Shown here: one piece after another, positions 2,155 through 53,521 of the stretch | How the letters are laid out: each line of letters begins with the position of its first letter | How positions within the stretch are numbered: the stretch's first letter is position 1 | Source: Escherichia coli | GTDB lineage: Bacteria > Pseudomonadota > Gammaproteobacteria > Enterobacterales > Enterobacteriaceae | NCBI RefSeq assembly: GCF_003790525.1 | Contig: NZ_CP033635.1 | Reading direction: 5' to 3' (one strand) | DNA length: 64,000 nt | The notes under the pieces: model-generated | Databases searched by the model: none | What the model saw: only the letters and a program-made list of their open reading frames with translations | What the model was told of the DNA's origin: nothing | Translations under genes and position numbers: made by a program

Positions 2155-2831
2155 TGCAATTCCTGAATATGTTCTTCTTTGATATCTACCCGTACATAGC
2201 CGGGGCGGTCTTCCTGATTGGTAGCTGGCTGCGTTATGACTACGGGCAGTACACCTGGCGCGCGGCGTCCAGCCAGATGCTGGATCGCAAAGGGATGAAC
2301 CTGGCGTCGAACCTGTTCCATATCGGTATTCTGGGGATTTTTGTCGGTCACTTCTTCGGTATGCTGACGCCGCACTGGATGTATGAAGCCTGGCTGCCGA
2401 TTGAAGTGAAACAGAAAATGGCGATGTTTGCTGGTGGTGCCAGCGGTGTGCTGTGTCTGATTGGCGGCGTGCTGTTGCTGAAGCGTCGTCTGTTCAGCCC
2501 ACGCGTGCGTGCAACCACTACCGGAGCGGATATCCTGATCCTGTCGCTGCTCGTTATCCAGTGCGCGCTGGGCTTGCTGACCATTCCGTTCTCAGCCCAG
2601 CATATGGACGGTAGCGAGATGATGAAACTGGTTGGCTGGGCGCAGTCGGTAGTGACCTTCCACGGTGGTGCTTCTCAACATCTTGATGGTGTGGCATTTA
2701 TCTTCCGTCTGCACCTGGTGTTGGGGATGACGTTATTCCTGCTGTTCCCGTTCTCGCGTCTGGTGCACATCTGGAGCGTACCGGTGGAGTATCTGACACG
2801 TAAGTATCAGCTGGTGCGCGCCCGTCACTAA
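2154..2831 (+). CDS. narI: respiratory nitrate reductase gamma (cytochrome b) subunit
   Basis: 225 aa multi-TM ORF with His residues, last gene of the nar operon. Confidence 0.9.
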
Positions 2832-2852
2832 GCGAATTTTAGTTCACATAGA

Positions 2853-2877
2853 CCCTGCTTCGGCGGGGTTTTTTTAT
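2853..2877 (+). terminator. rho-independent terminator after narI
   Basis: hairpin ccctgc-ttcg-gcgggg followed by a run of nine T. Confidence 0.7.
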
Positions 2878-3009
2878 GGGCACGGTGCGGGGTGAGTTGT
2901 CGGATGCGCTTCGCTTATCCGAACTTCAGGGGAGGATATTTTAGGTCCGGTAAACGCGGTGCCATCGGGCAGAATTAGCTCGGAGTAACAGGTTTTGAGT
3001 ATTTCAGGA

Positions 3010-3190
3010 AGTAATGGTGGTGGGGGAAGGATTACTAGCGCTGCGCGCTTCACCCTTCGGATCGTTGCCTGCGGCAACGCTTTCTCGCTGGCGCTCGAGT
3101 CGCACCTTGGTCGAAGCTTCTCATCCCTCCCCGCATGGGCAGAATATTTAATTGCGGATTCGTTTGAGAGTTCACGGACTTTTGAAAAGT
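3010..3190 (-). repeat. tyrT operon distal repeat region (rtT/tpr-like) with partial tRNA 3'-end copy
   Basis: partial copy of the tRNA-Tyr 3' end (atggtggtgggggaagg) at about 3013-3031, downstream of the two full tRNA-Tyr copies; rtT/tpr identity is from memory of K-12 organisation. Confidence 0.4.
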
Positions 3191-3192
3191 GA

Positions 3193-3277
<85 letters not shown>

Positions 3278-3311
3278 AGGGGTAATTCAAATTTTGAGGT
3301 AATGCTTGAGA

Positions 3312-3396
<85 letters not shown>

Positions 3397-3439
3397 ACGG
3401 GGTAATGCTTTTTACTGGCCTGCTCCCTTATCGGGAAGC

Positions 3440-3480
3440 GGGGCGCATCATATCAAATGACGCGCCGCTGTAAAGTGTTA
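3440..3480 (-). promoter_or_regulatory. tyrT promoter (-35 TTTACA, -10 TATGAT, GC-rich discriminator)
   Basis: minus-strand sequence tttacagcggcgcgtcatttgatatgatgcgccccgc: hexamers 16 nt apart, followed by GCGCCCCGC discriminator typical of stringently controlled stable-RNA promoters. Confidence 0.75.
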
Positions 3481-3555
3481 CGTTGAGAAAAATGAACTGG
3501 TTGCGTAATTTTCATCCGTAACGGATTAAAGGTAACCAGTTATTTTTGCTGGCGA

Positions 3556-4398
3556 TTAAAGAATAATCGTCCGATTACCGTAAACAAAGACGCGCTGCGC
3601 CAGTACTTTGTAGAGTGCGCGACTTAAGACGTTTTTCTCGACGTCACGACCTGCGCGCATCATATCTTCAGCTGTGTAGGTATGATCGACATGAATAACG
3701 TCCTGCATGATGATTGGACCTTCGTCCAGATTGTCATTCACATAGTGAGCGGTTGCGCCAATAATCTTCACGCCACGTTCATAGGCCTGGTGATAAGGAC
3801 GTGCGCCGATAAACGCTGGCAGGAATGAATGGTGAATATTGATGATCTTATTCGGGAAGCGTGCCACAAATTCTGGCGTTAATACCCGCATATACTTCGC
3901 CAGCACCACGTAGTCAGGCTGATAAGCATCAATGGCATCCGCCATCTTTTGATCGTGCTCGTTGCGACTTAATCCTTCATGACTTACCAGCTCAAACGGA
4001 ATATCAAAACGCTCAACCAGAGAACGTAAAGTATCGTGGTTACCAATAACTGCCGCGATTTCGACATCCAGGCCGCCGTAATTGGCTTTCATCAACAAAT
4101 CGCCAAGGCAATGCGCCTCTTTAGTGACCAGAATCACTATCCGGCGACGACCGGCAGGATTCAGCTCACGTACGGAGCCTTCTGGCAATGCGCTATCGAG
4201 ATCCGCCAGCAGGGTGGAATCATTAAAAATCCCCTCCAGTTCCGTGCGCATAAAAAAGCGCCCGGTACGGTGATCAACAAATTCATTGTTCTGTACGATA
4301 TTTAACTCGTGCTTGTAGCAAATATTGGTGATACGTGCGATCAGACCTTTTTGGTCCGGACAAATAGTACGCAGAACTTTACGTTGGAGTGAATGCAT
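3556..4398 (-). CDS. purU: formyltetrahydrofolate deformylase
   Basis: 280 aa ORF with N-terminal ACT-like domain and C-terminal formyltransferase fold; position next to the tyrT operon. Confidence 0.9.
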   Translation of the reverse strand: MHSLQRKVLRTICPDQKGLIARITNICYKHELNIVQNNEFVDHRTGRFFMRTELEGIFNDSTLLADLDSALPEGSVRELNPAGRRRIVILVTKEAHCLGDLLMKANYGGLDVEIAAVIGNHDTLRSLVERFDIPFELVSHEGLSRNEHDQKMADAIDAYQPDYVVLAKYMRVLTPEFVARFPNKIINIHHSFLPAFIGARPYHQAYERGVKIIGATAHYVNDNLDEGPIIMQDVIHVDHTYTAEDMMRAGRDVEKNVLSRALYKVLAQRVFVYGNRTIIL

Positions 4399-4447
4399 TG
4401 CTGGAAAAACCTTGTTGAGAGTGTTTGCTAAACCGTACCGTCAACCA

Positions 4448-4906
4448 TTATTGGCCGCAGCACTTTTTAAATTTTTTACCTGAACCACAAGGGCAGGGAT
4501 CGTTGCGGCCAAACTGCGGACGTGTACCGTCAATATAGTACCATTGACCGTTTTCTTTCAAAAATCGCGAACGTTCAATGATTGCACCTGTTTTGCCACC
4601 TTCGGTAAATCGAGCAACAAAACTGACAAATCCGATATTGTCGCCGTCCTGCCAACAATGTTCAAATACGGTCAATCCCAACCATTCAGTATGCGCAAAT
4701 CCGGCCATCAATTCGGCACGTAACGCCGCTGCTCCACAAGATGGATGCCAGGTCTTTATTAAATAATCTGCGTCTTGCATCACAAAAGCGCAGTAACGCG
4801 AACGCATGAGATGTTCTGGATCAGGTGCAACCTTTTCACCAGACACATAAGGGTGGCAACATAGGCTATACTCGACAGCACTACCACAGGGACAAAGCTG
4901 AGACAC
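4448..4906 (-). CDS. ychJ: UPF0225 protein with SEC-C metal-binding motifs
   Basis: ORF with CPCGSG motifs at both ends; start placed at in-frame GTG giving 152 aa (MSQLCPCG...). Confidence 0.8.
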
Positions 4907-5018
4907 AAATAATCTCCCTGGAAACAATAACGGCGTATTAACCGCCTGAGTAGCACTATGTTAACCGAGCAGTAGCGATGTGGCTACGATTGCATTCCAG
5001 GGGAATCTTGCGGGAATA

Positions 5019-5924
5019 ATGAGAAAGATAAAAATAGGGCTGGCGCTGGGATCTGGCGCGGCGAGAGGTTGGTCGCATATTGGCGTTATTAATGCGCTAA
5101 AAAAAGTGGGTATTGAAATTGATATCGTTGCAGGATGCTCAATTGGTTCGCTGGTGGGCGCGGCCTATGCATGCGATCGATTATCTGCGCTGGAAGATTG
5201 GGTAACCTCTTTCAGTTATTGGGATGTTTTACGCCTGATGGATCTCTCCTGGCAGCGCGGTGGGTTACTGCGCGGCGAGCGTGTCTTCAATCAATATCGC
5301 GAAATAATGCCGGAAACAGAGATCGAAAATTGTTCCCGTCGCTTCGCGGCTGTTGCCACCAATTTAAGTACTGGGCGCGAATTATGGTTTACTGAAGGCG
5401 ATCTCCATCTTGCTATTCGTGCATCATGCAGTATTCCAGGACTAATGGCACCCGTTGCGCATAACGGCTACTGGCTGGTTGATGGCGCTGTAGTTAACCC
5501 AATTCCTATTTCGCTCACGCGTGCATTGGGTGCTGATATTGTGATAGCGGTCGACCTGCAGCACGATGCTCATTTGATGCAACAAGATCTGCTCTCCTTT
5601 AATGTCAGTGAAGAAAATAGCGAGAATGGTGATTCTCTGCCGTGGCATGCGCGTCTGAAAGAAAGGTTGGGCAGCATAACGACACGTCGGGCGGTGACAG
5701 CGCCAACGGCAACAGAGATTATGACCACTTCTATCCAGGTGCTGGAGAACCGCCTTAAAAGGAACCGCATGGCAGGTGATCCGCCCGATATTCTGATTCA
5801 ACCTGTTTGCCCGCAAATATCTACGCTTGATTTCCATCGCGCGCACGCTGCCATTGCGGCTGGGCAGCTGGCAGTGGAAAAGAAAATGGACGAACTTTTG
5901 CCGTTGGTACGCACCAACATTTGA
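5019..5924 (+). CDS. rssA: patatin-like phospholipase
   Basis: GxGxxRG and GCSIGS patatin motifs; start chosen at MRKIKIG (301 aa), longer ORF begins at 4980. Confidence 0.85.
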   Translation: MRKIKIGLALGSGAARGWSHIGVINALKKVGIEIDIVAGCSIGSLVGAAYACDRLSALEDWVTSFSYWDVLRLMDLSWQRGGLLRGERVFNQYREIMPETEIENCSRRFAAVATNLSTGRELWFTEGDLHLAIRASCSIPGLMAPVAHNGYWLVDGAVVNPIPISLTRALGADIVIAVDLQHDAHLMQQDLLSFNVSEENSENGDSLPWHARLKERLGSITTRRAVTAPTATEIMTTSIQVLENRLKRNRMAGDPPDILIQPVCPQISTLDFHRAHAAIAAGQLAVEKKMDELLPLVRTNI

Positions 5925-34432: not shown

Positions 34433-36886
34433 TTAAAAATCAGCCTGATTCGGGATCAGTTTTTGTATAGTGGCTGTTACGTATTTTGCCTGGTGAAGAG
34501 CGTCATCCAGAGCATTATGGCGCACGCCTTCGAATGGAATTACGCTTCTGGCATTGAAGTCTGTGATTTTCCCCATCTCAACGATTGTGCGTACATCACG
34601 ATCGTTGCTGTAATGCCACGGACAGGGGATGTCCAGACGTTCGTATGAGGTGCGCAAAATTGCGTTATCGAACGTTGCGCCATTACCCCACACCTGAACG
34701 AATTTTTCATCAGAGTGTTCATTGACGAATTCCCGAAAACGCAAAAGGGCATCTTTCATTTTTACCTGGTCAGTTAAAATGGCAGCTCTGGCTTCGCTGG
34801 ACTGCTTCAGCCACCATTCGATGGTGCCACCATCAGGAACAGCCCCTGTATTCATTGCGTCAGTCAGGCTGATAACGATATAAAATACCGGCCCGATTTC
34901 CCCTGTTTCCGGGTCGAAGAAAACCGCACCAATAACTACTATGGGTGCATTGGTGTTGGCTCCCATTGTTTCAAGGTCGACTGACAGGTGATTCCATACT
35001 CTGCTGGTGGATGTGATTTCACGATGACCGTTCATCTTAATTAAGGAATTTTCTGTTTCGCCAGTTTTATTATCGCTGGCGTGGCCCTGAGCGCCGCCAG
35101 TGTTCTCCTTGTGCGGATGCTCAGTGCCTTCCGTTTCCTCCGGATTTTTTTCCTGAGATTCAGCCTGATTTTCTCCATTGAATGTTTCCTGGTATGTTGC
35201 GTCACCCATTACTGAGCCACAATCAGGGCAGTTGCCGCCGCTGGTCTGACCGCAGGCGGTGCAGACTTTTTCCGGTTCCTGTTGCGCTACTGGCTCAGGT
35301 TGTTTCGTTTCTGGCTCGTTTTGTAACGCATTTTGGCTGTTTTGTTCCGCTTTCTGGTCGTTCTGTTCCGTTTCTTGCTGGTTCTGGTTCACTGAATCGC
35401 GAGTCTGGACTCCCTTAACCCATTTCAGATCATTCGGGTCGCTAATCCCTTCAACGAACTCACCACGCGAGGCCGCCAGTAATTTGTCTGCATCGACAGG
35501 ATTTTTGGGCGGAATGTTTTTCCTAGCTTCATGGAGTTCTGCCCGCAGTTTCTGATATTTCGCATCAACAGAATTCACCTGCGGCTGAGCATCCAGCGGC
35601 TGCGTGTCCGGATGATGTTCAGTTGTATCCGGTTCCACTGTTTCAGTCGTTGGCTGTTCATCTGCCATTGCGCCAGACGGTTGCGGTTTTTCTTCATCAT
35701 CCTGTTTTCCTTCTTCTGTTACACGCTGCGGCATTGGGGCAGAGGAACGACCGCAGGCAATATCCACGATTTCCGGATCAGGGTTGGCATGATCGGTTTC
35801 GGTCAGCACTTTATTCAGGTATTCGGTGACGCGCTGGGGCATAGCCTCTATACCAACCGGTGCTTCTTTCACGGAGGCAACCACGATGGCGCGGGAATAA
35901 TCCATCCCGCCTGGCATGTTCAGAAAAGCCTTAAGGAAGACGGAGAAACAGGGATCATTTTCTGCGATAATTTCGTTAACACGTCTGGTATGTGAAGGAT
36001 GCATGTTGTAAATATCCACATCCATCGAACGAGCCAGTTTTCCTGTAGCAACATCGAATGCCATTGACGCATTATCATGCACAAAACCTTCGCCGCGATC
36101 GGTAAGGATACCGCCGCCAGCGTTAGCGCCGGATGGTGTGCGACTGATGCGAGAAACACGATTTCCTTTCATCCACTCTTTTGTAAGCAGACCACGATCA
36201 GTGTAGTCAGCGTCCAGGTATGCTTCGATGAAGGAGGTCATCAGTCCCAGGTCTGAATTTACGGGGGCGGGAAAAACTTTGTCAGTGTCCCGCACCAGTT
36301 TGTACAAATCCCGAATCTCCAGCGGTTCGAGTTGCGCTGCTTTATTTGAGATGGCCAGCGCGGTAACGGCGGGAAGTTTTTCTTCCTGTGCGTTATGTAA
36401 TGAGCGCAGTTCATCCCGCGAAACGTGCGTTACTGGTTTTTCGCCGCCGTGTTGCGCCAGCCAGCGAACAGGCAGAATCTGACCTGAAACCGGCAGAAGC
36501 ATATTCTCCTCAATCTCAGTCATGTCTTCGCCATTAACATTGGTGTTGTCAGTGCTGGCTGGTTTGTCCTGCGCGGATGGCGGGGGCGCGATAAATATCA
36601 TTGTGATGCCATCTTCGCCGCCTTTTTCATACCGGTTACAGAATTCGGTATCAAACACGCCTTCCGGTGGAAGGTCATCAACAACGGGCAAATGGACGCG
36701 AACAGGTTTTTTAAAGTCGTCTTCATCATAATCGTTATCATCCATTGCGGTAATACAGCGGGAGATGGCAACAGATAATTTTTTTGCTGTAGTCCAGTAA
36801 AAACCACCTTTAATCCCAAGGCGTTTTCTGACTTTGTCATTTTTAGCTTCGCAATATAGCGCAAAAGTTTCTTTATCAGTGCTCAT
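34433..36886 (-). CDS. phage exonuclease family protein with C-terminal DEDDh (DnaQ-like) 3'-5' exonuclease domain
   Basis: 817 aa; C-terminus [23 protein letters not shown]...[13 protein letters not shown]...HNALDDA; central zinc-ribbon [16 protein letters not shown]. Confidence 0.75.
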
Positions 36887-37005
36887 TGATAAACCTCATT
36901 GCTGTTTTAAGGTTGTGCGAATCCCTGCCATTGCTGGCATATGAGAATCGACCCTTATGTATTTATTAAGCTGAATGTCGTATTGGGTCAGTTATTTATT
37001 ACAGC

Positions 37006-45033: not shown

Positions 45034-45333
45034 TTATAAGAAATCGGTTTCATAACTTTGTCCGCCATGATAAACACCTGCGATAAAGACTTTATTGTCA
45101 TCAACGGCAAAAGCAATAATCGTTCTGTGGCGGAAATGAGTTACCCGCATCCCCTGGCGAATATCATCGCGTTTATTGCCCCGATGCGGAAATGCAGAAA
45201 ACCCATCAAGATAATCAAGAAGCGCATTGGCATAATTGTCAGCAATGACGCCTCCTGCTTTCTCCGTTATATATCTGTGCAGGTTTATTATCTGCTGTTC
45301 GGCCTCGGGGGTAATGATGACTTCAAATGTCAT
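45034..45333 (-). CDS. parE: type II toxin, RelE/ParE family
   Basis: 99 aa ParE-like pattern; 5 bp downstream of antitoxin gene. Confidence 0.7.
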   Translation of the reverse strand: MTFEVIITPEAEQQIINLHRYITEKAGGVIADNYANALLDYLDGFSAFPHRGNKRDDIRQGMRVTHFRHRTIIAFAVDDNKVFIAGVYHGGQSYETDFL

Positions 45334-45338
45334 GCAGA

Positions 45339-45596
45339 CTACTTCCCGGATCTAATCGCGGCGCGAACCTGTGAAATGGAGCGTCCGTTGTTTGGGTTTT
45401 CGCGGATAGAATCAAGAGAGGGGGCGACTGAATGCGTTAACCACGCTTCGATTGCTTTATCGCGCTCATTCAGTGCGCGAAGCCCTTCACGAATGACCTC
45501 GCTTTCTGAAGCATAGGCACCGGAAGCCACACGGGAGCGCACCATGTCAGCCATCTCGTTAGTTAATGTAATACTGAATTGTTGGGTTGTACGCAT
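45339..45596 (-). CDS. parD: type II antitoxin, ParD/ribbon-helix-helix family
   Basis: start at MRTTQQFSITL (RBS gtgagg); RHH motif SESEVIREGLRALNERDKAIEAWL. Confidence 0.7.
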   Translation of the reverse strand: MRTTQQFSITLTNEMADMVRSRVASGAYASESEVIREGLRALNERDKAIEAWLTHSVAPSLDSIRENPNNGRSISQVRAAIRSGK

Positions 45597-45731
45597 GGTA
45601 AACCTCACGGAGTAGGATAGAACACCATTCGATGATAGCACGCTGCCTGTTGACGACAACAGAAATCAGAGACAATATTGCCTCCAGCCAGCCTGAACAA
45701 CTGGCACCTGCTGCGCCAGCAGAGACAACGG

Positions 45732-46011: not shown

Positions 46012-47064
46012 GTGAGGGTATTAGTGACACCTGAAATTGCTCACCGTCTGGGGATTGTACTTTTCAGACCCGGTCCTGATGCGATGCCTTTGTTTATGCA
46101 GGGGCGTGTGCTGGTGGAGCCTGAACCGAAAAGCATGCGCGGTCTGCCGTCCGGAGTCGTTCCTGCCGTTCGCCAGCCGTTGGCGGAAGATAAATCATTA
46201 CTCCCATTTTTCAGCAATGAGCGTGTGATTCGTGCTGCCGGCGGCGCTGGTGCACTGTCTGACTGGCTGTTGCGTCATGTCAAATCCTGCCAGTGGCCTC
46301 ATGGTGACTATCATCACAGTGAAACCGTCATACATCGTTACGGTACCGGAGCGATGGTGTTGTGCTGGCACTGCGACAACCAGCTGCGTGACCAGACATC
46401 CGAATCACTTGAGCAACTTGCTCAACAAAACCAGGCAGAATGGATGATTGACGTCATACGCCATGCAATGAACGGCACGCAGGAGCGGGAATTATCGCTG
46501 GCTGAATTATGCTGGTGGGCGGTGTGCAATCAGGTGACGGATGCACTACCCGAGACAGTATTGAGTCGTTCGATGGGATTACCTGCGGAAAAAATACGCT
46601 CTGTATACCGCGAAAGCGACATCATACCAGGAGAAAAGACCGCCACCAGCATACTGAAACAGCGCACAAAAAATCTTGTGCTGCCGACCCACCAGCAACA
46701 GAACCGACCACAGGAAAATAAGGTGGTCACCCTTACCGTTGATCCCGATTCTCCGGCTCAGTATCTCCGGCGCCAGAAACCACAACGGGAAGAGATGCCC
46801 GTATACACGCGCTGGGTAAAAACGCAGAAATGCATGACGTGTGGCAATCAGGCAGATGATCCGCATCACATCATTGGTCATGGACTGGGAGGGATGGGAA
46901 CAAAGGCTGACGATTTATTTGTTATTCCGCTGTGTCGTAAATGCCACAACGAACTGCATGCCGGGGTAAAAGAATTTGAAGAAAAACACGGCAGCCAGCT
47001 GTTGTTGTTGATTTGTTTTTTAATGCACGCGAAAAATTCGGGCGTCCTGAAGTGGAATGCATAA
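46012..47064 (+). CDS. DUF968-like phage protein with C-terminal zinc-finger/HNH-like motif
   Basis: GTG start after ggagg RBS; C-terminal CMTCGNQADDPHHIIGHGLGGMG...CRKCHNELH. Confidence 0.65.
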   Translation: MRVLVTPEIAHRLGIVLFRPGPDAMPLFMQGRVLVEPEPKSMRGLPSGVVPAVRQPLAEDKSLLPFFSNERVIRAAGGAGALSDWLLRHVKSCQWPHGDYHHSETVIHRYGTGAMVLCWHCDNQLRDQTSESLEQLAQQNQAEWMIDVIRHAMNGTQERELSLAELCWWAVCNQVTDALPETVLSRSMGLPAEKIRSVYRESDIIPGEKTATSILKQRTKNLVLPTHQQQNRPQENKVVTLTVDPDSPAQYLRRQKPQREEMPVYTRWVKTQKCMTCGNQADDPHHIIGHGLGGMGTKADDLFVIPLCRKCHNELHAGVKEFEEKHGSQLLLLICFLMHAKNSGVLKWNA

Positions 47065-47430
47065 ATGACTGAACACATAGAATTTGTTTTGCCTTACCCG
47101 CCAACGGTGAATACTTACTGGCGACGTCGTGGCAGCACATATTTTGTATCAAAAGTCGGTGAACGTTATCGCCGGGATGTGGCGTTAATTGTTCGCCAAC
47201 AGCGGTTGAAATTAAACCTGTCCGGAAGGCTGGCAATAAAAATTATTGCAGAGCCACCGGATAAGCGCCGCCGCGACCTGGACAATATCCTGAAGGCACC
47301 ACTGGATGCACTGACGCATGCCGGACTATTCATAGACGACGAGCAGTTTGATGAAATTAATATTGTGCGCGGTCAGCCCGTTCCTGGTGGGCGGCTGGGG
47401 ATAAAAATCACAGAACTGGAGTGCGCATGA
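47065..47430 (+). CDS. rusA: Holliday junction resolvase RusA
   Basis: 121 aa with conserved RRDLDNILKAPLDAL motif. Confidence 0.85.
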   Translation: MTEHIEFVLPYPPTVNTYWRRRGSTYFVSKVGERYRRDVALIVRQQRLKLNLSGRLAIKIIAEPPDKRRRDLDNILKAPLDALTHAGLFIDDEQFDEINIVRGQPVPGGRLGIKITELECA

Positions 47431-48095
47431 ATAACCAGTATTTACAGTTTGTGCGTGAGCAGCTCATTATCGCCACCGCTGATTTGAGTGGGGCAACAAA
47501 AGGTCAGCTTGAAGCCTGGCAGGAGAATGCCATGTTCGATACAGGGCGTTACAGGCGTAAAAAAATCCGGTACCGCGATGAAGTGACTGGAAAAATGATA
47601 ACGCGGGATAATCCACCAATCCCGGGAAAACAATCGCTGGCGAAAGGCTCATCAATTGCCCTGGTCAGCCCGGTTGAGTTTTCGACATCATCATGGCGGC
47701 GGGCGGTTCTGTCTATTGAAGAACATCAGAAAGCCTGGTTGTTGTGGTGTTACAGCGGGAGTATTTGCTGGGAGTATCAGGTCACTATAACCCACTGGGC
47801 ATGGGAAGAGTTTAAGGCCCATTGTGGCAACAGGAAAATTGCAGAGAAAACACGGGAACGCCTGAAAAAATTAATCTGGCTGGCGGCGCAGGCAGTAAAA
47901 GCAGAAATTTTTGGTAAGGAAGGTTACGAATACCAGGATCTGGCATTACTGGCGGGAGTGACAGCCAAAAACTGGTCCAAAACATTTACTGGTCACTGGA
48001 TTGCAATGAAACACATTTTTCACCGGCTGGATAGTGAGGCTTTATTGTTTGTGACGAGAACACGTTCAAAACAAAAGGCGGCATTTTCACAGTAA
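47427..48095 (+). CDS. late-gene antiterminator Q-like protein
   Basis: ATGA overlap with rusA stop; sits before a promoter-terminator pair and the lysis genes, the lambdoid Q position. Confidence 0.6.
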   Translation: MNNQYLQFVREQLIIATADLSGATKGQLEAWQENAMFDTGRYRRKKIRYRDEVTGKMITRDNPPIPGKQSLAKGSSIALVSPVEFSTSSWRRAVLSIEEHQKAWLLWCYSGSICWEYQVTITHWAWEEFKAHCGNRKIAEKTRERLKKLIWLAAQAVKAEIFGKEGYEYQDLALLAGVTAKNWSKTFTGHWIAMKHIFHRLDSEALLFVTRTRSKQKAAFSQ

Positions 48096-48180
48096 AGTAT
48101 TGCAAAAGTAGATTAAAAGGCATATATTTCGTGTGAATTTGATATTCTGCCGATTTTGTACGTAATGGCAAATCAAGCAA

Positions 48181-48205
48181 AACCCGCCGCCGAGTGGGTT
48201 TTTTT
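48181..48205 (+). terminator. tR'-like terminator downstream of Q (late promoter region)
   Basis: hairpin aacccgc-cgccga-gtgggtt followed by seven T. Confidence 0.65.
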
Positions 48206-48345
48206 ATACCTGAAAAAGACACAGAACATTAAATGTGATGGCTATTGTGCTATGAGTTTTTCCTGCTATGAAGCTTCTTGACTACATGGAGCTCCATTTG
48301 TTATGCAATATATTGTTATGTTTTTGAGTTGTTAATGGTGTTGCT

Positions 48346-49059
48346 ATGGATGACAGTACTCTGCTCAGGTACTCTTCACTTTTTGTTGCTTATATGGGAT
48401 GTCTTGGGTGGGGAAGCGCTTACTTTTATGGCTGGGGTACATCCTTTTATTATGGTTTCCCATGGTGGGTGGTTGGGGCTGGTGTCGATGATGTGGCCAG
48501 AAGCCTTTTTTATGCCGTTACAGTCATTGTTATATTCCTGATTGGGTGGGGAGTCGGTGTTGTTTTCTTCCTGGGGATCAAACAAAAAAATAATGTGCAG
48601 GATCTGAGTTTTATCAGACTTTTTCTGGCGATATTGTTGCTTTTTGTTCCGCCTGCTCTGGAGTTTTCAGTAATTCATCGACGCGTTGCGCTAGATGCAT
48701 TGGTTTTATGCGTTATTGCTGCCTTAATAATTACGGTTTTTGTCAGGTCAGGAAGAAGACTTATTTCAGTCAAATGTTTTTCGGAAATGTCTTTTATTCG
48801 TCATCACTGGATTGAGTGTATGATGGTCGGATTCATGATCTATTTCTGGGGATTTTCACTTATTGCCGGTTGGTACAAACCCCAGTTTAAGAAGGAATAT
48901 CAGATGCTCCACTATGATAGTGTCTGGTATTATGTTCTTGCACGCTATGATGACAGGCTGGTGTTGTCGAAATCGTACAGTAATGGGAGTTCTACATTCG
49001 TTATACTTAATAGCGGGCAGATTGATGACTTCGAAGTTAATGTAGTCAGAGTGCGTTAA
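48346..49059 (+). CDS. membrane protein of unknown function (cargo between Q and tRNA genes)
   Basis: 237 aa; Trp/Gly-rich N-terminal TM helices plus hydrophilic C-terminal region; visibly AT-richer than flanking prophage genes. Confidence 0.6.
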   Translation: MDDSTLLRYSSLFVAYMGCLGWGSAYFYGWGTSFYYGFPWWVVGAGVDDVARSLFYAVTVIVIFLIGWGVGVVFFLGIKQKNNVQDLSFIRLFLAILLLFVPPALEFSVIHRRVALDALVLCVIAALIITVFVRSGRRLISVKCFSEMSFIRHHWIECMMVGFMIYFWGFSLIAGWYKPQFKKEYQMLHYDSVWYYVLARYDDRLVLSKSYSNGSSTFVILNSGQIDDFEVNVVRVR

Positions 49060-49181
49060 TATTGCCTGAGTAATTTTCTGTTGACCGCTCAAATTCTTTT
49101 ACCATGTGTAGGCCAATATGCAGGATTTAATCAGGGAAGGGTATTGCAGAGCAAAACTGGCATAAGTATTATTCCGCATAC

Positions 49182-49257
49182 GTCCCTTTAGCTCAGTGGT
49201 GAGAGCGAGCGACTCATAATCGCCAGGTCGCTGGTTCAAATCCAGCAAGGGCCACCA
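49182..49257 (+). tRNA. tRNA with CAU anticodon (Ile2/Met-type, ileZ-like)
   Basis: cloverleaf folds by eye: D stem GCTC/GAGC, anticodon loop CTCATAA, T loop TTCAAAT, CCA encoded; one mismatch at pair 2-71. Confidence 0.8.
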
Positions 49258-49258
49258 A

Positions 49259-49335
49259 CCGCCACTAGCTCATCAGGAGAGAGCATCAGCCTTCTAAGCT
49301 GACTGTGCGGGGTTCGAGTCCCCGGTGGCGGTCCA
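49259..49335 (+). tRNA. tRNA-Arg (UCU)
   Basis: cloverleaf folds by eye: D stem GCTC/GAGC, anticodon stem TCAGC/GCTGA, loop CTTCTAA, T stem CGGGG/CCCCG, CCA encoded. Confidence 0.85.
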
Positions 49336-49336
49336 G

Positions 49337-49410
49337 CGCCGACTTACCTCAGTCGGCAGAACAGTTTAGTTGTAACCATCAGGCCACCACTTCAATTCCG
49401 GTAGTCGGCA
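49337..49410 (+). tRNA. tRNA-like sequence, possibly degenerate third tRNA
   Basis: perfect 7-bp acceptor stem GCCGACT/AGTCGGC and TTCAATT T-loop-like motif, but no canonical D or anticodon arm and no CCA. Confidence 0.25.
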
Positions 49411-49750
49411 CTAAATTTCCAGGCTCGTGCTCACGGCCTGCTTCATATCCGCGCCAGGTCCGTCGCGATTAAACCACAGGGCTTTTCAGGAGGGGCCACA
49501 GAGAGCGTCACACTGACCATTCCCTGTGGCTTGTGCTGAGATCCGGTCAGTGAAATTGTGCAAAGGGAATCTTCGGGAGCTTTGGGCAGAATGTCAGTTA
49601 TTGATGTTGACATCCTCCACACCCTGAAGGTCGGGGTTTTACGGCGCACTGGATAAAATACCTGAACAAACAGCCTCTTCGTGCGGCTTTTTTATAACGA
49701 GATTCTGACTTGCTGCCGTCCGTAATGTCGGATGGCGGAGGTGAGGGACT

Positions 49751-50023
49751 ATGAGAATGGACGAACGATACAGTAACGCTGCATACGGCAGCGCAGGACT
49801 TGTTGCGTTCTTTGCCAGCCTGTCACTGCAGGATTGGGGATTTATTATCGGCGTGGCGTTCAGTATCATTCTTGGTGTTCTTACTTATCGCCTTAACAAA
49901 CGGGAGCAGGAAAAACGAACCCGCATATTGCTCGAAATTCTGGAACGAACTAATGCCGGTAATGTTCCGGCTACGGCACATGCTGTGGCTGAGATTGCGA
50001 AAAAGGCACCAAAAGAAATATGA
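49751..50023 (+). CDS. holin (two-TM, pinholin-like) with dual-start motif
   Basis: 90 aa; MRM dual start, two hydrophobic helices, charged C-terminus; RBS ggaggtgaggg. Confidence 0.7.
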   Translation: MRMDERYSNAAYGSAGLVAFFASLSLQDWGFIIGVAFSIILGVLTYRLNKREQEKRTRILLEILERTNAGNVPATAHAVAEIAKKAPKEI

Positions 50024-50179
50024 CGAATATCCCGGGAGTGAGGGGATAATATACCTTTTAACAAAATCCGGGAACATGAAACGCCCGGAACGTTTCATGA
50101 GACATGCCCCGTGGGGAGCAGGGCATAACTGTGCGGAATAGCTTTCATTGTGATATCAATAATCACGGTATTCAAAATA

Positions 50180-50557
50180 TTACGGGCCTGTGGGATCAGG
50201 TTGTTTTTTGTCTGATTCCAGAGGGAAGGGACGCTGTTTCGGTTCTCTGAACTTTAGTGATAATGAATTGAAAATCCTCATTTTTTGCTGCCATGCATAA
50301 TGTCTGTCCCATGAACAGGGGGGGCTCAATTCTTCATTCACCCATGCGTTAATATCTTGTTTCAGGTGTTGAAGCATATGGGGTGTTAATGCACTCATAA
50401 TAATATCCAGCGTTTTATGCGAGAGTTTACCGTAAGGGTCTGCAAGGATGCTGCTCGTTGCTTCGTTATTATCCACCATAAGTGGAAGTAGCGCTGATTT
50501 AACTTTTTCTGTCATTAGTTGCAAAAATCTACTGCGCAAATTTTCTTTACTGTTCAT
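50180..50557 (-). CDS. hypothetical protein encoded antisense inside the lysis cassette
   Basis: 125 aa hydrophilic ORF with gagg RBS; lies between 11-bp direct repeats at 50087 and 50607. Confidence 0.45.
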   Translation of the reverse strand: MNSKENLRSRFLQLMTEKVKSALLPLMVDNNEATSSILADPYGKLSHKTLDIIMSALTPHMLQHLKQDINAWVNEELSPPCSWDRHYAWQQKMRIFNSLSLKFREPKQRPFPLESDKKQPDPTGP

Positions 50558-50680
50558 TTCTGAAGCCTCATCTGTTGTCGTTTGGTTTTCCTGAACGGGT
50601 ATGTTTATGAGACATGCTGGTACTGGATTATATACCTGATATATCCAGGGCTATAAACCTTTAGATCCTGATAAATATAC

Positions 50681-51214
50681 ATGAACGCAAAAATCAGATA
50701 CGGCCTGTCGGCTGCCGTTCTGGCGCTGATTGGTGCTGGCGCATCTGCTCCTCAGATACTTGATCAGTTTCTGGACGAAAAAGAGGGTAACCACACAACG
50801 GCATACCGCGATGGTTCTGGCATATGGACCATCTGCCGCGGTGCCACGGTGGTGGATGGAAAACACGTTTTTCCCGGAATGAAGCTGTCGAAGGAAAAAT
50901 GCGCTCAGGTTAATGCCATTGAGCGTGATAAGGCGCTGGCATGGGTGGAGCGCAATATTAAAGTTCCACTGACCGAAGCACAGAAAGCGGGTATTGCGTC
51001 ATTCTGTCCCTATAACATTGGCCCCGGTAAGTGTTTCCCGTCGACGTTTTATAAGCGGCTTAATGCCGGTGATCGAAAAGGCGCCTGCGAGGCGATTCGC
51101 TGGTGGATAAAGGATGGTGGGCGCGATTGCCGCATACGTTCAAATAACTGCTATGGACAGGTTATTCGTCGTGACCAGGAAAGCGCATTAGCCTGTTGGG
51201 GGATAGATCAGTGA
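50681..51214 (+). CDS. SAR-type endolysin (phage lysozyme)
   Basis: 177 aa; N-terminal signal-anchor-release-like segment [15 protein letters not shown] followed by lysozyme-like catalytic region; precedes Rz/Rz1. Confidence 0.8.
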
Positions 51215-51678
51215 GCAGAGTCGCCGCGATTATTTATGCTCTGGTTATCTGCATCATCGTCTGCCTGTCGTTGGCGGTCAATCATTACCGTGATAACGCC
51301 ATAGCCTACAAAGAACAGCGTGATAAAAAAGTCAGTGAACTGAAGCAGGCGACCGCCACCATTACTGACATGCAGCAGCGTCAGCGTGATGTTGCTGCGC
51401 TCGATGCAAAGTACTCGAGAGAATTAGCCAATGCGAAAGCTGAAAATGAAACTCTGCGCGCTGATGTTGCCGCTGGCCGTAAGCGCCTGCGGGTCAATGC
51501 CAGTTGCTCCGAAGCCGTGCGTGAAGCCACCGGACCCACCAGCGTGGATAATGCAACCAGCCCCCGACTGGCAGACACCGCTGAACGGGATTATTTCACC
51601 CTCAGAGAACGGTTGATGACGATGCAGAAGCAACTGGAAGGGGCACAGGAGTATATCCGCACTCAGTGCATTAAGTAG
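51211..51678 (+). CDS. i-spanin Rz
   Basis: GTGA overlap with endolysin stop; N-terminal TM helix, coiled-coil periplasmic domain. Confidence 0.8.
51431..51616 (+). CDS. o-spanin Rz1 (lipoprotein embedded in Rz, +1 frame)
   Basis: [22 protein letters not shown] lipobox and Pro-rich [28 protein letters not shown], very similar to lambda Rz1. Confidence 0.8.
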
Positions 51679-52313: not shown

Positions 52314-52763
52314 ATGCAAGAAGAAGCAAATAAAATTCTTGTTGATTTATTGACGAAGGCCAGCGATGGAATTGATTCCGCCATTGCATTCAGTCAGGCT
52401 CAGATTCCGGATGTTGTTCATCAGTTGCTGGTATGGAATATGGTTGATAGCCTGATTAAAACATTAATAGCCATTTCAACAATCCCTCTGGTTTTCTGGT
52501 TTATGAAGAAGCAGTGCCAAAGAGTTGAGACAGGTAAAATCGGTGATGAAGGATATTCATGGGAGAAGGGAAATCCCAAATACAGGCCGACAATGGTTTG
52601 GGATAGCAAAGGTGATATTAATCTTCTTATCGTGCCATTGGTTGGAGTTTTGACTATGTGGGGGATTTTTATTATTTGTGCAGTAACCAATATGACATGG
52701 TTAAAAATCTGGCTGGCACCTAAGTTATATCTAATCGAATACGCAGCATCACTAATTAAATAG
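52314..52763 (+). CDS. membrane protein of unknown function (AT-rich moron)
   Basis: start MQEEANKIL with agga RBS; two predicted TM helices; hairpin terminator just downstream. Confidence 0.55.
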   Translation: MQEEANKILVDLLTKASDGIDSAIAFSQAQIPDVVHQLLVWNMVDSLIKTLIAISTIPLVFWFMKKQCQRVETGKIGDEGYSWEKGNPKYRPTMVWDSKGDINLLIVPLVGVLTMWGIFIICAVTNMTWLKIWLAPKLYLIEYAASLIK

Positions 52764-53194
52764 TCCATTACAAAAGCCATTCGCTACAGAGTGGCTTTGA
52801 TAATGGCTTATACCCTGTACGGGATAACTTAATTGATATCCCTTTTAACGGATAAAGGTATTCAAGCCTGACACATCATTCGCTATATAGTCGCCGTATT
52901 CCCGTATGAACAGAAACCGTAGCCCGACGGGGAACTCCTTCTGCGCGAGTGTGCGGGAATAATCAAAAACGATGTACACCGGGTTTTTACCGCGTTAATG
53001 ATTCGCGGGTTTATCCCTCATAGTCGCCTGTCCGGTGCGATGGTGGAAGAAACCGGAAGCTGTATTACAGAAAGTGCTACTACTGTATCCTGATGCGATG
53101 TATGTAATGTGAGTCAGATAATGGCACAGGATGTGGTGATGTGGCAGTCTGGAACACAGGATATATTGTCAGAATAAGACCCGTAGGAATAAAA

Positions 53195-53521
53195 ATGAAA
53201 AGACGCCTTTCACTACTTTTTCTGTTATCTGCCCTGGCAGTGGGATGCTCGCAGCAAAAAGCTGATGAGCCCCGGCAATTAGTGACGGTGTATCCACGAT
53301 ATCCGGAATATGCTGCAGCAAATTATATCAAGGGGCTGGTTGAGGTTAAGTTCGATATTGGTGCTGACGGGACTGTGACACGGATCGTTTTTCTCCGCTC
53401 AGAGCCTCATAATTTGTTTCGTGATGAAGTGGTGAAGGCCATGGCGAAATGGAGATTTGAAAAGAATAGTCCCCGTCAGGGAGTGAAGAGACAATTTATC
53501 TTTACGCCATCACGTCCCTGA
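53195..53521 (+). CDS. lipoprotein consisting of a TonB C-terminal-like domain
   Basis: start MKRRLSLLFLLSALAVGCSQQ (lipobox LAVGC); region YPRYPEYAAANYIKGLVEVKFDIGADGTVTRIVFL...FRDEVVKAMAKWRFE aligns with host TonB C-terminus [32 protein letters not shown]...[15 protein letters not shown] in this window. Confidence 0.7.
   Translation: MKRRLSLLFLLSALAVGCSQQKADEPRQLVTVYPRYPEYAAANYIKGLVEVKFDIGADGTVTRIVFLRSEPHNLFRDEVVKAMAKWRFEKNSPRQGVKRQFIFTPSRP

What the first reader, a model, noticed from the sequence alone, without database searches (positions are those of the whole stretch)
48100..49180. Membrane-protein cargo in the Q-to-tRNA slot where Stx phages carry toxin genes
Downstream of Q and its tR'-like terminator, and immediately upstream of the phage tRNA cluster, sits a 237-aa multi-TM protein with a hydrophilic C-terminal region, on DNA visibly more AT-rich than the flanking prophage genes. 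This is the high-expression late-operon position that lambdoid phages use for lysogenic-conversion cargo. No Shiga toxin ORFs follow the tRNAs here, so this membrane protein is the cargo candidate; function unknown (phage exclusion, abortive infection and envelope modification are all possible).
Basis: partly seen in the sequence, partly recalled or inferred. Interest (0 to 1): 0.6.

Follow-up and report, generated by a model that had tools for sequence, protein, structure and literature searches.

The report
TfpB-family membrane gene behind phage Q
The 237-residue membrane protein is real, but it is a common and already catalogued gene of unknown function (Pfam TfpB / Salmonella STM1630 family) that many lambda-like prophages, including classical phage 434, carry as the first gene after the late-gene switch Q; it sits alongside Shiga toxin genes in some phages rather than replacing them.

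Summary
Window 48346-49059 (+) encodes a 237-aa multi-pass membrane protein. It lies behind Q, a pR'-like promoter and a tR'-like hairpin, ahead of tRNA-Ile(CAU) and tRNA-Arg(UCU), on DNA about 6-7 GC points below its flanks.

It is not unique cargo. It belongs to Pfam PF27470 'TfpB' (PGAP 'STM1630 family', phrog_1521). Relatives occur in 1196 of 5426 complete E. coli genomes, in phage 434, O157:H7 and EPEC E2348/69. In 67 of 80 IMG/VR loci a Q gene ends within 300 bp upstream. Three Q families are involved.

The gene co-occurs with stx (Q-TfpB-tRNAs-stx2AB), so it does not replace the toxin. dN/dS of 0.12-0.20 shows selection. Phage 434B lost the gene and remains viable.

Distant relatives are solitary chromosomal genes in Neisseria and Pasteurellaceae. 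In Moraxella the relative is tfpB, inside the pilin inversion segment.

The AlphaFold model (pLDDT 81) shows five membrane helices plus a small C-terminal beta domain, probably periplasmic. It has no characterised structural relative. No acidic, His, Cys or Lys residue is invariant or near-invariant.

Best reading: a portable, non-enzymatic accessory envelope protein. Its mechanism is unknown. Interest is modest.

The parts
47421..48095 (+). Late antiterminator Q (Q82-like)
   Evidence: phrog_304 'anti-termination protein Q-like', E 8.9e-106. 76% identical to the Q82-like Q of phage 434. PGAP names it 'bacteriophage antitermination protein Q'.
48100..48128 (+). pR'-like late promoter candidate (TTGCAA, 17 nt, TATATT)
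   Evidence: Consensus scan, 9 of 12 matches. The block aligns with the equivalent sequence just after Q in phage 434. Function is inferred, not shown.
48179..48205 (+). tR'-like hairpin plus U-run. It is the left end of the conserved cassette.
   Evidence: The RNA fold gives a 9-pair stem (a 5-pair G+C-rich core plus A-U pairs) followed by U. The hairpin is conserved behind different Q types. It was not detected on the + strand by the terminator scan.
48278..48307 (+). Conserved promoter-like leader block: TTGACT (48278-48283), 18 nt, TGnTATGCA (TG at 48299-48300, hexamer at 48302-48307)
   Evidence: 'CTCTTGAC' and 'TTTGTTATG' are the most conserved non-coding columns in 53 distinct upstream sequences. 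The block is kept in non-prophage copies, where homology starts at the -35-like element (ETEC plasmid, iro island). The hexamer lacks the final T, so promoter activity is an inference.
48346..49059 (+). TfpB/STM1630-family inner-membrane protein, 237 aa (the finding)
   Evidence: ORF. phrog_1521, E 2.5e-89. A 99%-identical cluster carries PF27470, named TfpB. dN/dS 0.12-0.20. AlphaFold2 pLDDT 81.3, with five long helices and a 5-strand C-terminal domain.
49182..49257 (+). Phage tRNA with CAU anticodon (ileZ-like; PGAP: tRNA-Ile)
   Evidence: ARAGORN. Rfam tRNA, 64 bits. Nearly identical to ileZ of 933W in alignment.
49259..49335 (+). Phage tRNA-Arg (UCU)
   Evidence: ARAGORN. Rfam tRNA, 56.7 bits.
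49751..50023 (+). Holin, the start of the lysis cassette (context)
   Evidence: phrog_1350 holin, E 3e-29. Lysozyme at 50681-51214 and an Rz-like gene at 51196-51678 follow.

Best explanation
The gene encodes a member of the TfpB/STM1630 family (Pfam PF27470).

Predicted protein (model and charge bias):
- An inner-membrane protein with five membrane helices and the N-terminus in the cytoplasm.
- A very conserved aromatic and glycine-rich first helix and first periplasmic loop (AY..G..GWGSAYFYGWG..YYGFPWW).
- A C-terminal beta domain of about 55 residues on the periplasmic side.

Shown:
- The gene is part of a portable cassette: a tR'-type hairpin, a leader with a conserved promoter-like block, and the ORF.
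- The cassette sits as the first gene of the late operon behind three different Q families in lambdoid prophages.
- It is independent of what follows it (tRNAs, stx2AB, DUF3927, nanS-p or holin).
- It is under purifying selection.
- It is dispensable for phage growth.
- No acidic, histidine, cysteine or lysine residue is invariant or near-invariant across the family. The conserved charged residues are two arginines.

Inferred:
- It is a non-enzymatic accessory ('moron') envelope protein that acts alone at the periplasmic face of the inner membrane.
- It is made in bulk when Q reads through tR' after induction.
- It is probably also made at a low, H-NS-limited level from its own promoter in the lysogen.
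- It benefits the carrier bacterium (envelope or host-association fitness) rather than virion production or lysis.

The molecular target is unknown. My rough split of the possibilities is:
- host or envelope fitness factor: about 0.35
- exclusion of incoming phage DNA or toxins at the inner membrane: about 0.25
- pilus or competence-related role: about 0.1
- lysis-timing role: about 0.1
- something else: about 0.2
For: Family membership:
- phrog_1521.
- PF27470 on clusters 43-99% identical, with the name TfpB shown.
- PGAP uses the name 'STM1630 family protein' for an 82%-identical remnant.
- P0069 lies next to sseJ, so it is STM1630 (PMC6785131).
- Profile and pattern searches reach Moraxella bovis tfpB, which lies between inverted pilin segments.

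Position:
- Phage 434, O157:H7, EPEC and MS20654, and Yersinia.
- In 67 of 80 viral loci a Q gene ends within 300 bp upstream.
- The hairpin and leader are conserved across Q types.

The gene is real and selected: dN/dS is 0.12-0.20 and the ORFs are intact.

Dispensable for phage growth: phage 434B replaced this region with DLP12 DNA and still plates (PMC9119081). Only 434 and 2B8 among 50,697 phage records carry the gene.

Autonomous action: relatives in Gallibacterium, Avibacterium, Neisseria and Pasteurella are single genes among unrelated housekeeping genes, with no conserved neighbour.

Own promoter:
- The conserved TTGAC-N18-TGnTATGnA block is kept in non-phage copies.
- Salmonella STM1630 has its own mapped promoter, is H-NS bound, and is induced in SPI-2 medium and in macrophages (PMC6785131 Text S1).

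Host-side role: according to PMC6785131 Text S1, which cites Morgan et al. 2004 (not read here), STM1630 signature-tagged mutants are attenuated in calves and chickens. A deletion in strain 4/74 alters intramacrophage replication.

Structure:
- AlphaFold2 gives pLDDT 81, pTM 0.73.
- Charge bias across 44 sequences puts the N-terminus and loops 2 and 4 inside.
- Only uncharacterised proteins match in AFDB.
- Invariant residues are A, Y, W, G, L and F. Near-invariant residues add S, P and two arginines (R52, R91).
Against: - No experiment addresses the E. coli or phage protein.
- The promoter-like -10 hexamer (TATGCA or TATGTA) lacks the usually essential final T, so expression in the lysogen is unproven.
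- The Salmonella phenotypes are weak or inconsistent. There was no macrophage defect, and the deletion replicated better. A hypermotility phenotype (PMC4219756) was not reproduced (PMC4534456).
- The topology rests only on the positive-inside rule.
- Placement directly behind pR' in 84% of viral loci would also suit a function needed late in the lytic cycle.
- This prophage looks defective, so Q-driven expression may not occur here at all.
Confidence: 0.5

Rival explanations
1. Superinfection exclusion or abortive-infection protein. The inner-membrane protein blocks DNA entry of incoming phages (or uptake of colicins) at the periplasmic face, or it collapses the membrane on infection. It would resemble HK97 gp15, P22 SieA or T4 Imm in principle.
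For: - It is a single-gene, multi-pass inner-membrane protein with a predicted periplasmic domain.
- It is carried by temperate phages as dispensable cargo.
- It has a possible promoter of its own.
- It is highly mobile between phage backbones.
Against: - No PADLOC model matches, even at E <= 1.
- No similarity by sequence or fold to any known exclusion protein.
- Distant relatives are stable single genes among housekeeping genes in Pasteurellaceae and Neisseria, not in defence islands or prophages.
- Placement behind tR' means low expression in a repressed lysogen unless the leader promoter is active.
Confidence: 0.22
2. Lytic-cycle helper. A late protein prepares the envelope for lysis or release, for example by regulating holin timing, preventing progeny from re-adsorbing or injecting into dying cells, or supporting export of downstream cargo.
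For: - It is the first ORF transcribed from pR' after Q antitermination in 67 of 80 viral loci.
- It is in the same operon as holin, endolysin and spanin.
- The tR' hairpin travels with the gene.
Against: - It is not adjacent to the lysis cassette. It is separated by tRNAs, stx, DUF3927 and nanS-p, at distances of about 700 to 3600 bp.
- The PHROG category is 'unknown', not lysis.
- It is absent from nearly all sequenced lambdoid and Stx phages and was lost in viable 434B (PMC9119081).
- Homologues are maintained outside phages, including Salmonella STM1630, Moraxella tfpB and Pasteurellaceae.
Confidence: 0.1
3. Type IV pilus or competence-linked membrane factor. As Moraxella tfpB lies inside the invertible pilin segment, the family could interact with pilins or the pilus machinery at the inner membrane. 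The phage copy might modulate such appendages.
For: - M. bovis tfpB (261 aa) lies between two inverted pilin gene segments.
- The M. lacunata copy lies between piv and a type IV pilin gene.
- Chromosomal relatives cluster in Neisseriaceae, Pasteurellaceae and Moraxellaceae. By general knowledge, all of these are piliated or competent taxa.
Against: - There are no pilus genes beside the relatives in Gallibacterium, Avibacterium, Neisseria arctica or Pasteurella.
- The M. lacunata copy is truncated to 195 aa. From memory of the older Moraxella literature, that species is still piliated; I did not check this here.
- E. coli rarely expresses type IV pili.
Confidence: 0.08
4. Functionless hitch-hiker: an ORF that merely rides along with the tR' terminator and tRNA region.
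For: No phenotype is known. The prophage in this window appears defective.
Against: - dN/dS is 0.12-0.20 with saturated synonymous sites at greater distances.
- The full-length architecture is conserved from E. coli to Yersinia, Neisseria and Moraxella.
- ORFs are intact in all compared copies.
Confidence: 0.03

Closest known systems
Phage 434 gene CPT_434_68 'putative membrane protein' (OL657226)
   Same: 59% identical over the full length. It occupies the same position: Q82-like Q, terminator, then this gene. The Q proteins are 76% identical.
   Different: In 434 the gene is followed by DUF3927 (TciB-like), a small membrane protein and a nanS-p esterase, not by tRNAs. The 434 annotation uses a start codon 27 nt upstream.
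Salmonella Typhimurium STM1630 (PGAP 'STM1630 family protein')
   Same: 47% identical, 238 aa, same architecture. AT-rich, horizontally acquired DNA.
   Different: STM1630 is a solitary gene between steB and sseJ, not in a prophage. It has its own mapped promoter, is H-NS bound, and is induced in SPI-2 conditions (PMC6785131). The E. coli-type leader block is not conserved upstream of it.
Moraxella bovis / M. lacunata TfpB (namesake of Pfam PF27470)
   Same: Same family by profile and pattern search, at 26-32% identity. It shares the N-terminal AY.YGWG..YGYPWW motif, a similar length and the C-terminal YYIL beta domain.
   Different: It lies inside the invertible type IV pilin segment next to piv. 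It is not phage-borne. The M. lacunata copy is truncated. Its function is also unknown.
Shiga toxin (and LT-II) genes in the Q-to-S interval of lambdoid phages
   Same: Accessory cargo transcribed from pR' under Q control, associated with ileZ/arg tRNA genes.
   Different: stx lies downstream of the tRNAs and this gene lies upstream. The two co-occur (L039, L069, L088). This protein is an integral membrane protein, not a secreted toxin.
Lambdoid morons and exclusion proteins (lambda Bor/Lom, HK97 gp15, P22 SieA/SieB, lambda RexB)
   Same: Dispensable, compositionally deviant, membrane-associated prophage genes that act on the host envelope. This is a functional analogy only.
   Different: No sequence or fold similarity. 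The genomic position is different. Those genes are expressed from the repressed prophage, which is unproven here.

Membership tests
Pfam PF27470 TfpB / PGAP 'STM1630 family' / phrog_1521 | Significant sequence match to the family model | tested here: met
   phrog_1521, E 2.5e-89 over residues 17-237. The 99%-identical cluster P0001 and all 120 listed homologues carry precomputed PF27470, named TfpB. The tool's own Pfam-A copy lacks this model and NCBIfam has no HMM for it, so the Pfam assignment is indirect.
Pfam PF27470 TfpB / PGAP 'STM1630 family' / phrog_1521 | Shared architecture: about 230-260 aa, a conserved aromatic and Gly N-terminal motif, several membrane helices, and a C-terminal beta domain with a YY(V/I)L strand | tested here: met
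   Alignments A1, A3 and A6. AlphaFold2 model. Foldseek hits of TM 0.6-0.9 to family members from Salmonella, Neisseria, Haemophilus and Moraxella.
Pfam PF27470 TfpB / PGAP 'STM1630 family' / phrog_1521 | Homology to the name-giving proteins (Salmonella STM1630, Moraxella TfpB) | tested here: met
   P0069 (47% identical) lies beside sseJ, as STM1630 does (PMC6785131). The M. bovis locus L122 and the M. lacunata locus L126 were retrieved with the family pattern and lie in the pilin inversion region.
Lambdoid late-operon accessory gene (moron / lysogenic-conversion cargo) | Located between Q/pR' and the lysis genes, on the late-operon strand | tested here: met
   Also in 67 of 80 viral loci.
Lambdoid late-operon accessory gene (moron / lysogenic-conversion cargo) | Dispensable for lytic growth and variably present among related phages | tested here: met
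   Present in 434 and replaced in viable 434B (PMC9119081). Only 3 of 50,697 phage records carry it. Present in 1196 of 5426 E. coli genomes. The dispensability evidence is indirect, not a targeted deletion.
Lambdoid late-operon accessory gene (moron / lysogenic-conversion cargo) | Base composition deviating from the surrounding phage genes | tested here: met
   ORF GC 41.7% against 47.6-48.7% in the flanks.
Lambdoid late-operon accessory gene (moron / lysogenic-conversion cargo) | Own promoter, and expression from the repressed prophage | tested here: inconclusive
   The conserved TTGAC-N18-TGnTATGnA block is retained in non-phage copies, but the -10 hexamer is imperfect and the scan did not call it. 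Expression cannot be measured with these tools.
Lambdoid late-operon accessory gene (moron / lysogenic-conversion cargo) | A phenotype conferred on the lysogen | not testable with these tools
   Only indirect data exist for Salmonella STM1630.
Known anti-phage defence or superinfection-exclusion proteins | Match to a defence-system model or to a known exclusion protein | tested here: not met
   PADLOC gives 0 families at E <= 1. There is no PDB sequence match at E <= 10 and no BFVD fold match at E <= 0.001.
Holin / lysis-accessory proteins | Membership of a lysis family, and adjacency or co-variation with the holin-endolysin cassette | tested here: not met
   The PHROG category is unknown. The gene is separated from the holin by 0.7-3.6 kb of variable cargo. 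The family also occurs outside phages.
Shiga-toxin-converting cargo | stxA/stxB homologues in the Q-S interval | tested here: not met
   tblastn with Stx2A/B from 933W finds nothing in the window.

The most novel reading that the evidence does not exclude
TfpB/STM1630 proteins are an unrecognised class of autonomous inner-membrane effectors that act from the periplasmic face. For example, they might gate or block an inner-membrane conduit used by incoming phage DNA, colicins or pilus and competence machinery. Lambdoid phages would have captured one as a standard 'first late gene', with dual control (own promoter plus Q read-through), to alter the envelope of lysogens and of induced cells. This would give one mechanism to three orphan observations: Moraxella tfpB, Salmonella STM1630 with its in-vivo phenotypes, and gene 68 of phage 434.
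Probability: 0.2. Interest if true: 0.65.

Novelty: new member of a known kind. Interest (0 to 1): 0.33.

Why it matters
The gene is in about one in five complete E. coli genomes, including O157:H7, EPEC E2348/69 and some Stx2 prophages, and in the textbook phage 434. It sits at the most strongly Q-activated position of the late operon. Nobody knows what it does.

This work links it to Salmonella STM1630, which is induced in macrophages and has reported colonisation phenotypes, and to Moraxella tfpB. A single experiment set in phage 434 or E. coli K-12 could therefore inform three systems.

It also corrects a tempting inference. An ORF between Q and the tRNAs is not a stand-in for Shiga toxin.

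In itself the finding is an ordinary, already catalogued prophage gene of unknown function.

Tried and rejected
Searches that found nothing informative:
- Pfam-A on the protein and on all 44 aligned members: no hit. The tool's library predates PF27470.
- NCBIfam: only noise far below cut-offs.
- PADLOC: nothing.
- PDB by sequence profile: nothing at E <= 10.
- Foldseek against BFVD: nothing at E <= 0.001.
- Rfam on 47000-51000: only the two tRNAs. A sub-threshold STnc370 hit on the minus strand over the terminator was dismissed.

Structure prediction: the first AlphaFold run, with only enterobacterial sequences, was poor (pLDDT 61). Adding distant relatives fixed it.

Literature:
- Searches on TciB and DUF3927 showed that the name comes from phage P1 tci genes and says nothing about this protein.
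- No paper mentions PF27470.
- The reported hypermotility of a Salmonella STM1630 deletion was not reproduced in a follow-up, so I do not use it.

Other ideas tested:
- A short upstream leader peptide was rejected because its ATG is not conserved in phage 434.
- A longer N-terminal extension of the ORF is impossible in this window because of an in-frame TGA at 48325-48327.
- The genome-contig scan with the full divergent alignment failed for lack of a conserved stretch. A narrower alignment worked.
Full report
**1. Observation**

Its ATG is the first possible start after an in-frame TGA at 48325-48327. PGAP annotates exactly this ORF as a hypothetical protein (WP_098717023.1) in E. coli LR-31. 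That genome is 100% identical to the window over 47400-50700.

Upstream lie these features:
- RusA at 47065-47430.
- Q at 47421-48095 (phrog_304, E 9e-106). It is 76% identical to the Q82-like Q of phage 434.
- A promoter-like TTGCAA-17-TATATT at 48100-48128.
- A hairpin followed by a U-run at 48179-48205.

The hairpin is short, with a five-pair G+C-rich core. The terminator scan found it only on the opposite strand. Calling it tR'-like therefore rests on its position and on its conservation in related loci.

Downstream lie these features:
- A tRNA with anticodon CAU (PGAP: tRNA-Ile) and tRNA-Arg(UCU), at 49182-49335.
- A 415-bp stretch without a credible ORF.
- A holin at 49751-50023 (phrog_1350), a lysozyme and an Rz-like gene.

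No Stx homologue exists in the window. The ORF has 41.7% GC, against 47.6% for Q, 48.2% for the lysis genes and 48.7% for the window.

**2. The gene is real and under selection**

A search of 5.8 billion proteins returned 124 homologues, all from Enterobacterales: Escherichia, Shigella, Salmonella, Citrobacter, Klebsiella, Enterobacter, Cronobacter and Yersinia. Identities range from 43 to 99%, and most hits are full length.

Pairwise Nei-Gojobori estimates against twelve copies give dN/dS of 0.12-0.20 wherever synonymous sites are not saturated. None of the copies has an internal stop.

**3. Family**

- PHROGs places the protein in phrog_1521, of unknown function (E 2.5e-89).
- The Pfam-A copy available to me, NCBIfam and PADLOC give nothing.
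- The homologue table carries a precomputed Pfam hit, PF27470, for every relative, including a 99%-identical cluster. The contig look-ups print its name, TfpB.
- PGAP labels an 82%-identical remnant 'STM1630 family protein'.
- The Salmonella cluster P0069 (47% identical) lies beside the SseJ gene, as STM1630 does (supplementary tables of PMC6785131).

A profile search of 1.84 billion representatives found 72 relatives. The named ones come from Neisseria, Actinobacillus, Gallibacterium, Avibacterium, Pasteurella and Klebsiella electrica. All are 'hypothetical'.

A pattern scan of one genome per species added Aggregatibacter, Glaesserella, Rodentibacter, Conchiformibius and four Moraxella species.

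In M. bovis the 261-aa relative lies between two inverted pilin gene segments. In M. lacunata a copy truncated to 195 aa lies between an IS110-like recombinase gene (piv) and a type IV pilin gene. This is the classical pilin inversion region, whose internal ORF was named tfpB. That attribution of the name is from my memory of the older Moraxella literature; the gene order is shown here.

**4. Where the gene sits**

In phage 434 the order is Q82-like Q, terminator, this gene (59% identical), DUF3927 (TciB-like), a small membrane protein, nanS-p esterase, pinholin.

The same immediate Q-then-gene arrangement occurs in these genomes:
- O157:H7 and EPEC E2348/69, behind a lambda-Q-like 207-aa Q.
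- MS20654, behind a 273-aa Q and followed by four tRNAs.
- Yersinia, behind a Q933W/Q21-type Q (PF06530).

Among the best 80 of 181 IMG/VR viral contigs that encode a relative, 67 have a Q gene ending within 300 bp upstream. Six have Q further away, with insertions in between: stx genes in L088 and ORFs resembling transposase, methyltransferase or antirepressor genes in others. Seven have none of my Q references.

The homology between loci with different Q genes begins at the terminator hairpin and continues through the leader. The mobile unit is therefore hairpin, leader and ORF.

By blastn the gene or a remnant is in 1196 of 5426 complete E. coli genomes, usually in one or two copies. Of these, 459 genomes hold at least 80% of its length at the nucleotide level. 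In contrast, only phage 434 and phage 2B8 carry it among 50,697 deposited phage genomes.

Remnants occur outside prophages:
- Beside eltAB on an ETEC plasmid.
- Beside iroBC and a tRNA-Arg in an ExPEC or Nissle-type island.

**5. Relation to Shiga toxin**

In 933W the order is Q, pR', terminators, ileZ-argN-argO, stx2AB, nanS-p, S. The toxin therefore follows the tRNAs, whereas this gene precedes them.

The window's first tRNA is nearly identical to ileZ. The sequence between the ORF and the tRNA is shared with MS20654 but not with 933W.

IMG/VR loci L039 and L069 carry Q-TfpB-tRNAs-stx2AB. L088 carries Q, an stx pair 54% and 60% identical to Stx2A and Stx2B, then TfpB. The membrane gene and the toxin are independent cargo. 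The inference 'no toxin, therefore this is the cargo' does not hold.

**6. Structure**

With 24 enterobacterial sequences, AlphaFold2 gave a poor model (pLDDT 61). With 44 sequences including distant relatives it gave pLDDT 81.3 and pTM 0.73. The model contains:
- Helices at 5-36, 47-78, 89-111, 116-135 and 155-181.
- Short helices at 142-153.
- A five-strand domain at 184-235.

Hydropathy agrees. Across the 44 sequences, the N-terminus, loop 78-90 and loop 135-156 are net positive (+0.9, +1.8 and +2.3). Loop 37-52 is net negative.

By the positive-inside rule, the N-terminus is cytoplasmic. The conserved GFPWW loop and the C-terminal domain are then periplasmic. This is an inference.

Conservation is highest in the first helix and first loop. 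Invariant residues across distant members are Ala, Tyr, Trp, Gly, Leu and Phe. Near-invariant positions add Ser, Pro and two arginines (R52 and R91). No acidic, His, Cys or Lys residue is conserved, which argues against an enzyme.

Fold searches found no characterised relative:
- Foldseek against AFDB50 finds only uncharacterised proteins. These include family members in Salmonella, Neisseria, Haemophilus, Glaesserella, Mannheimia and Moraxella, and more distant look-alikes in Bacillus and Clostridia.
- BFVD gives nothing.
- A PDB sequence profile gives nothing.

**7. Clues to regulation**

In 53 distinct upstream sequences the best-conserved non-coding columns are CTCTTGAC and, 12-13 nt further on, TTTGTTATG.

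In the window this reads TTGACT (48278-48283), 18 nt, TATGCA (48302-48307), preceded by TGn. That is a good -35 element and an extended -10 with an imperfect hexamer.

In the ETEC plasmid copy, homology to the prophage copies begins right at this -35-like element. This is what one expects if the block is the gene's own promoter. The promoter scan did not call it, so this remains an inference.

For Salmonella STM1630, a separate promoter is documented. The gene is H-NS bound, expressed in SPI-2-inducing medium and in macrophages, and silenced by two SNPs in the -10 box in ST313 strains (PMC6785131 Text S1). It was also listed among genes co-regulated with SPI-2 (PMC2639726).

**8. Clues to function**

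The protein is dispensable for the phage. Phage 434B replaced about 5.5 kb, including Q, the late promoter and the lysis region, with DLP12 DNA and still forms plaques (PMC9119081). The replaced interval in the 434 record covers this gene.

Relatives in Gallibacterium, Avibacterium, Neisseria arctica and Pasteurella are single genes flanked by unrelated housekeeping genes that differ between genera. The protein therefore probably acts without a dedicated partner. One distant relative lies next to a serine invertase gene.

Literature on STM1630:
- Function unknown.
- Signature-tagged mutants attenuated in calves and chickens, as PMC6785131 reports citing Morgan et al. 2004, which I did not read.
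- No growth defect.
- A deletion in strain 4/74 replicated more in macrophages.
- A reported hypermotility was not reproduced.

Nothing links the family to lysis or to known defence systems.

**9. Most likely explanation**

Shown:
- It is a TfpB/STM1630-family membrane protein.
- It is carried as a portable cassette at the first position of the late operon, behind three Q families.
- It is selected and dispensable for the phage.
- It is independent of stx.

Inferred:
- It is a non-enzymatic accessory envelope protein acting alone at the periplasmic face of the inner membrane.
- It is produced massively on Q read-through, and probably weakly from its own H-NS-limited promoter.
- It benefits the bacterium rather than virion production.

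I put about 0.5 on this general statement. Within it, I give about 0.35 to a host or envelope fitness role and about 0.25 to exclusion of incoming DNA or toxins. Rivals are a lytic-cycle helper (0.1), a pilus or competence-linked role suggested by Moraxella (0.08) and a functionless hitch-hiker (0.03, contradicted by dN/dS).

One caveat is specific to this window. The prophage lies next to ompW. It lacks an annotated repressor and O gene, has a truncated P gene, and has a head-decoration gene running straight into a 'tail tip' ORF. It is probably defective, so Q-dependent expression may not happen in this strain.

**10. Novelty and verdict**

The sequence family is already catalogued in Pfam, PHROGs and PGAP naming, and the gene is annotated in phage 434. 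It is a new member of a known but uncharacterised kind.

What this analysis adds:
- The rule that the cassette sits directly behind Q regardless of Q type.
- The co-occurrence with stx.
- The link between phage 434 gene 68, Salmonella STM1630 and Moraxella tfpB.
- A usable structural model with a predicted topology.

Interest is modest (0.33). The gene is common, has an intriguing position and is easy to test in a classical phage. Nothing about it is anomalous, and no mechanism can be derived from the available data.

Noticed in passing
window 45034-45659 (- strand): A ParE/RelE-type toxin (99 aa) and ParD-type antitoxin pair inside the prophage nin region. They are oriented against the early operon (phrog_5232 and phrog_6494; PGAP type II TA).
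   Followed up: partly
window 53141-53521 (+): A prophage ORF with a lipoprotein-like signal (..LSALAVGCSQQ) and a TonB C-terminal domain (NCBIfam tonB_Cterm, E 1e-12). PHROGs files it under 'Rz-like spanin'. It may be a TonB-domain decoy or an envelope protein.
   Followed up: partly
window 50180-50557 (- strand): A 125-aa ORF antisense to the late operon, between the holin and the lysozyme (phrog_1853, unknown function). PGAP marks it as a truncated pseudogene. It splits the lysis cassette.
   Followed up: no
window 49336-49750: A 415-bp ORF-free spacer between tRNA-Arg and the holin. This is the position where 933W carries stx2AB. It contains a weak hairpin and T-run near 49670-49695.
   Followed up: no
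window 52314-52763 (+): Another AT-rich (about 38-39% GC) ORF with hydrophobic stretches downstream of Rz (phrog_3054, unknown function). It is a second moron candidate.
   Followed up: partly
window about 35800-64000 (L130): The prophage is integrated next to ompW, with its integrase at about 35806-36936. It looks defective: the P gene is truncated, no repressor or O gene is annotated, dicB is partial, and the head-decoration gene is followed directly by a 'tail tip protein' ORF.
   Followed up: partly
L006 (NZ_CP122817 ETEC plasmid) 1982-4709; L003 (NZ_CP134716) 1939-5896: Copies or remnants of the same membrane gene lie beside the LT toxin genes eltAB on an ETEC plasmid, and beside iroBC plus a tRNA-Arg in an ExPEC island. 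These look like footprints of lambdoid late regions next to virulence loci.
   Followed up: partly
L039 5001-7415; L069 5001-8547; L088 3540-5711 (IMG/VR): Stx prophages that also carry the membrane gene: two with Q-TfpB-ileZ-argN-argO-stx2AB, and one with Q-stxAB-TfpB. In the latter the toxin is only 54% and 60% identical to Stx2A and Stx2B, and its TfpB copy is 71% identical to the window protein.
   Followed up: partly
L122 491-1276; L126 4347-7568: Moraxella bovis tfpB (261 aa) lies between two inverted pilin gene segments on a 1.9-kb contig. The M. lacunata copy is truncated to 195 aa and is flanked by piv and a complete type IV pilin gene.
   Followed up: partly
L020 6001-7348: A distant family member (P0169) sits next to a 185-aa serine resolvase/invertase gene and an integrase fragment. 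This is a second association of the family with site-specific recombinases.
   Followed up: no
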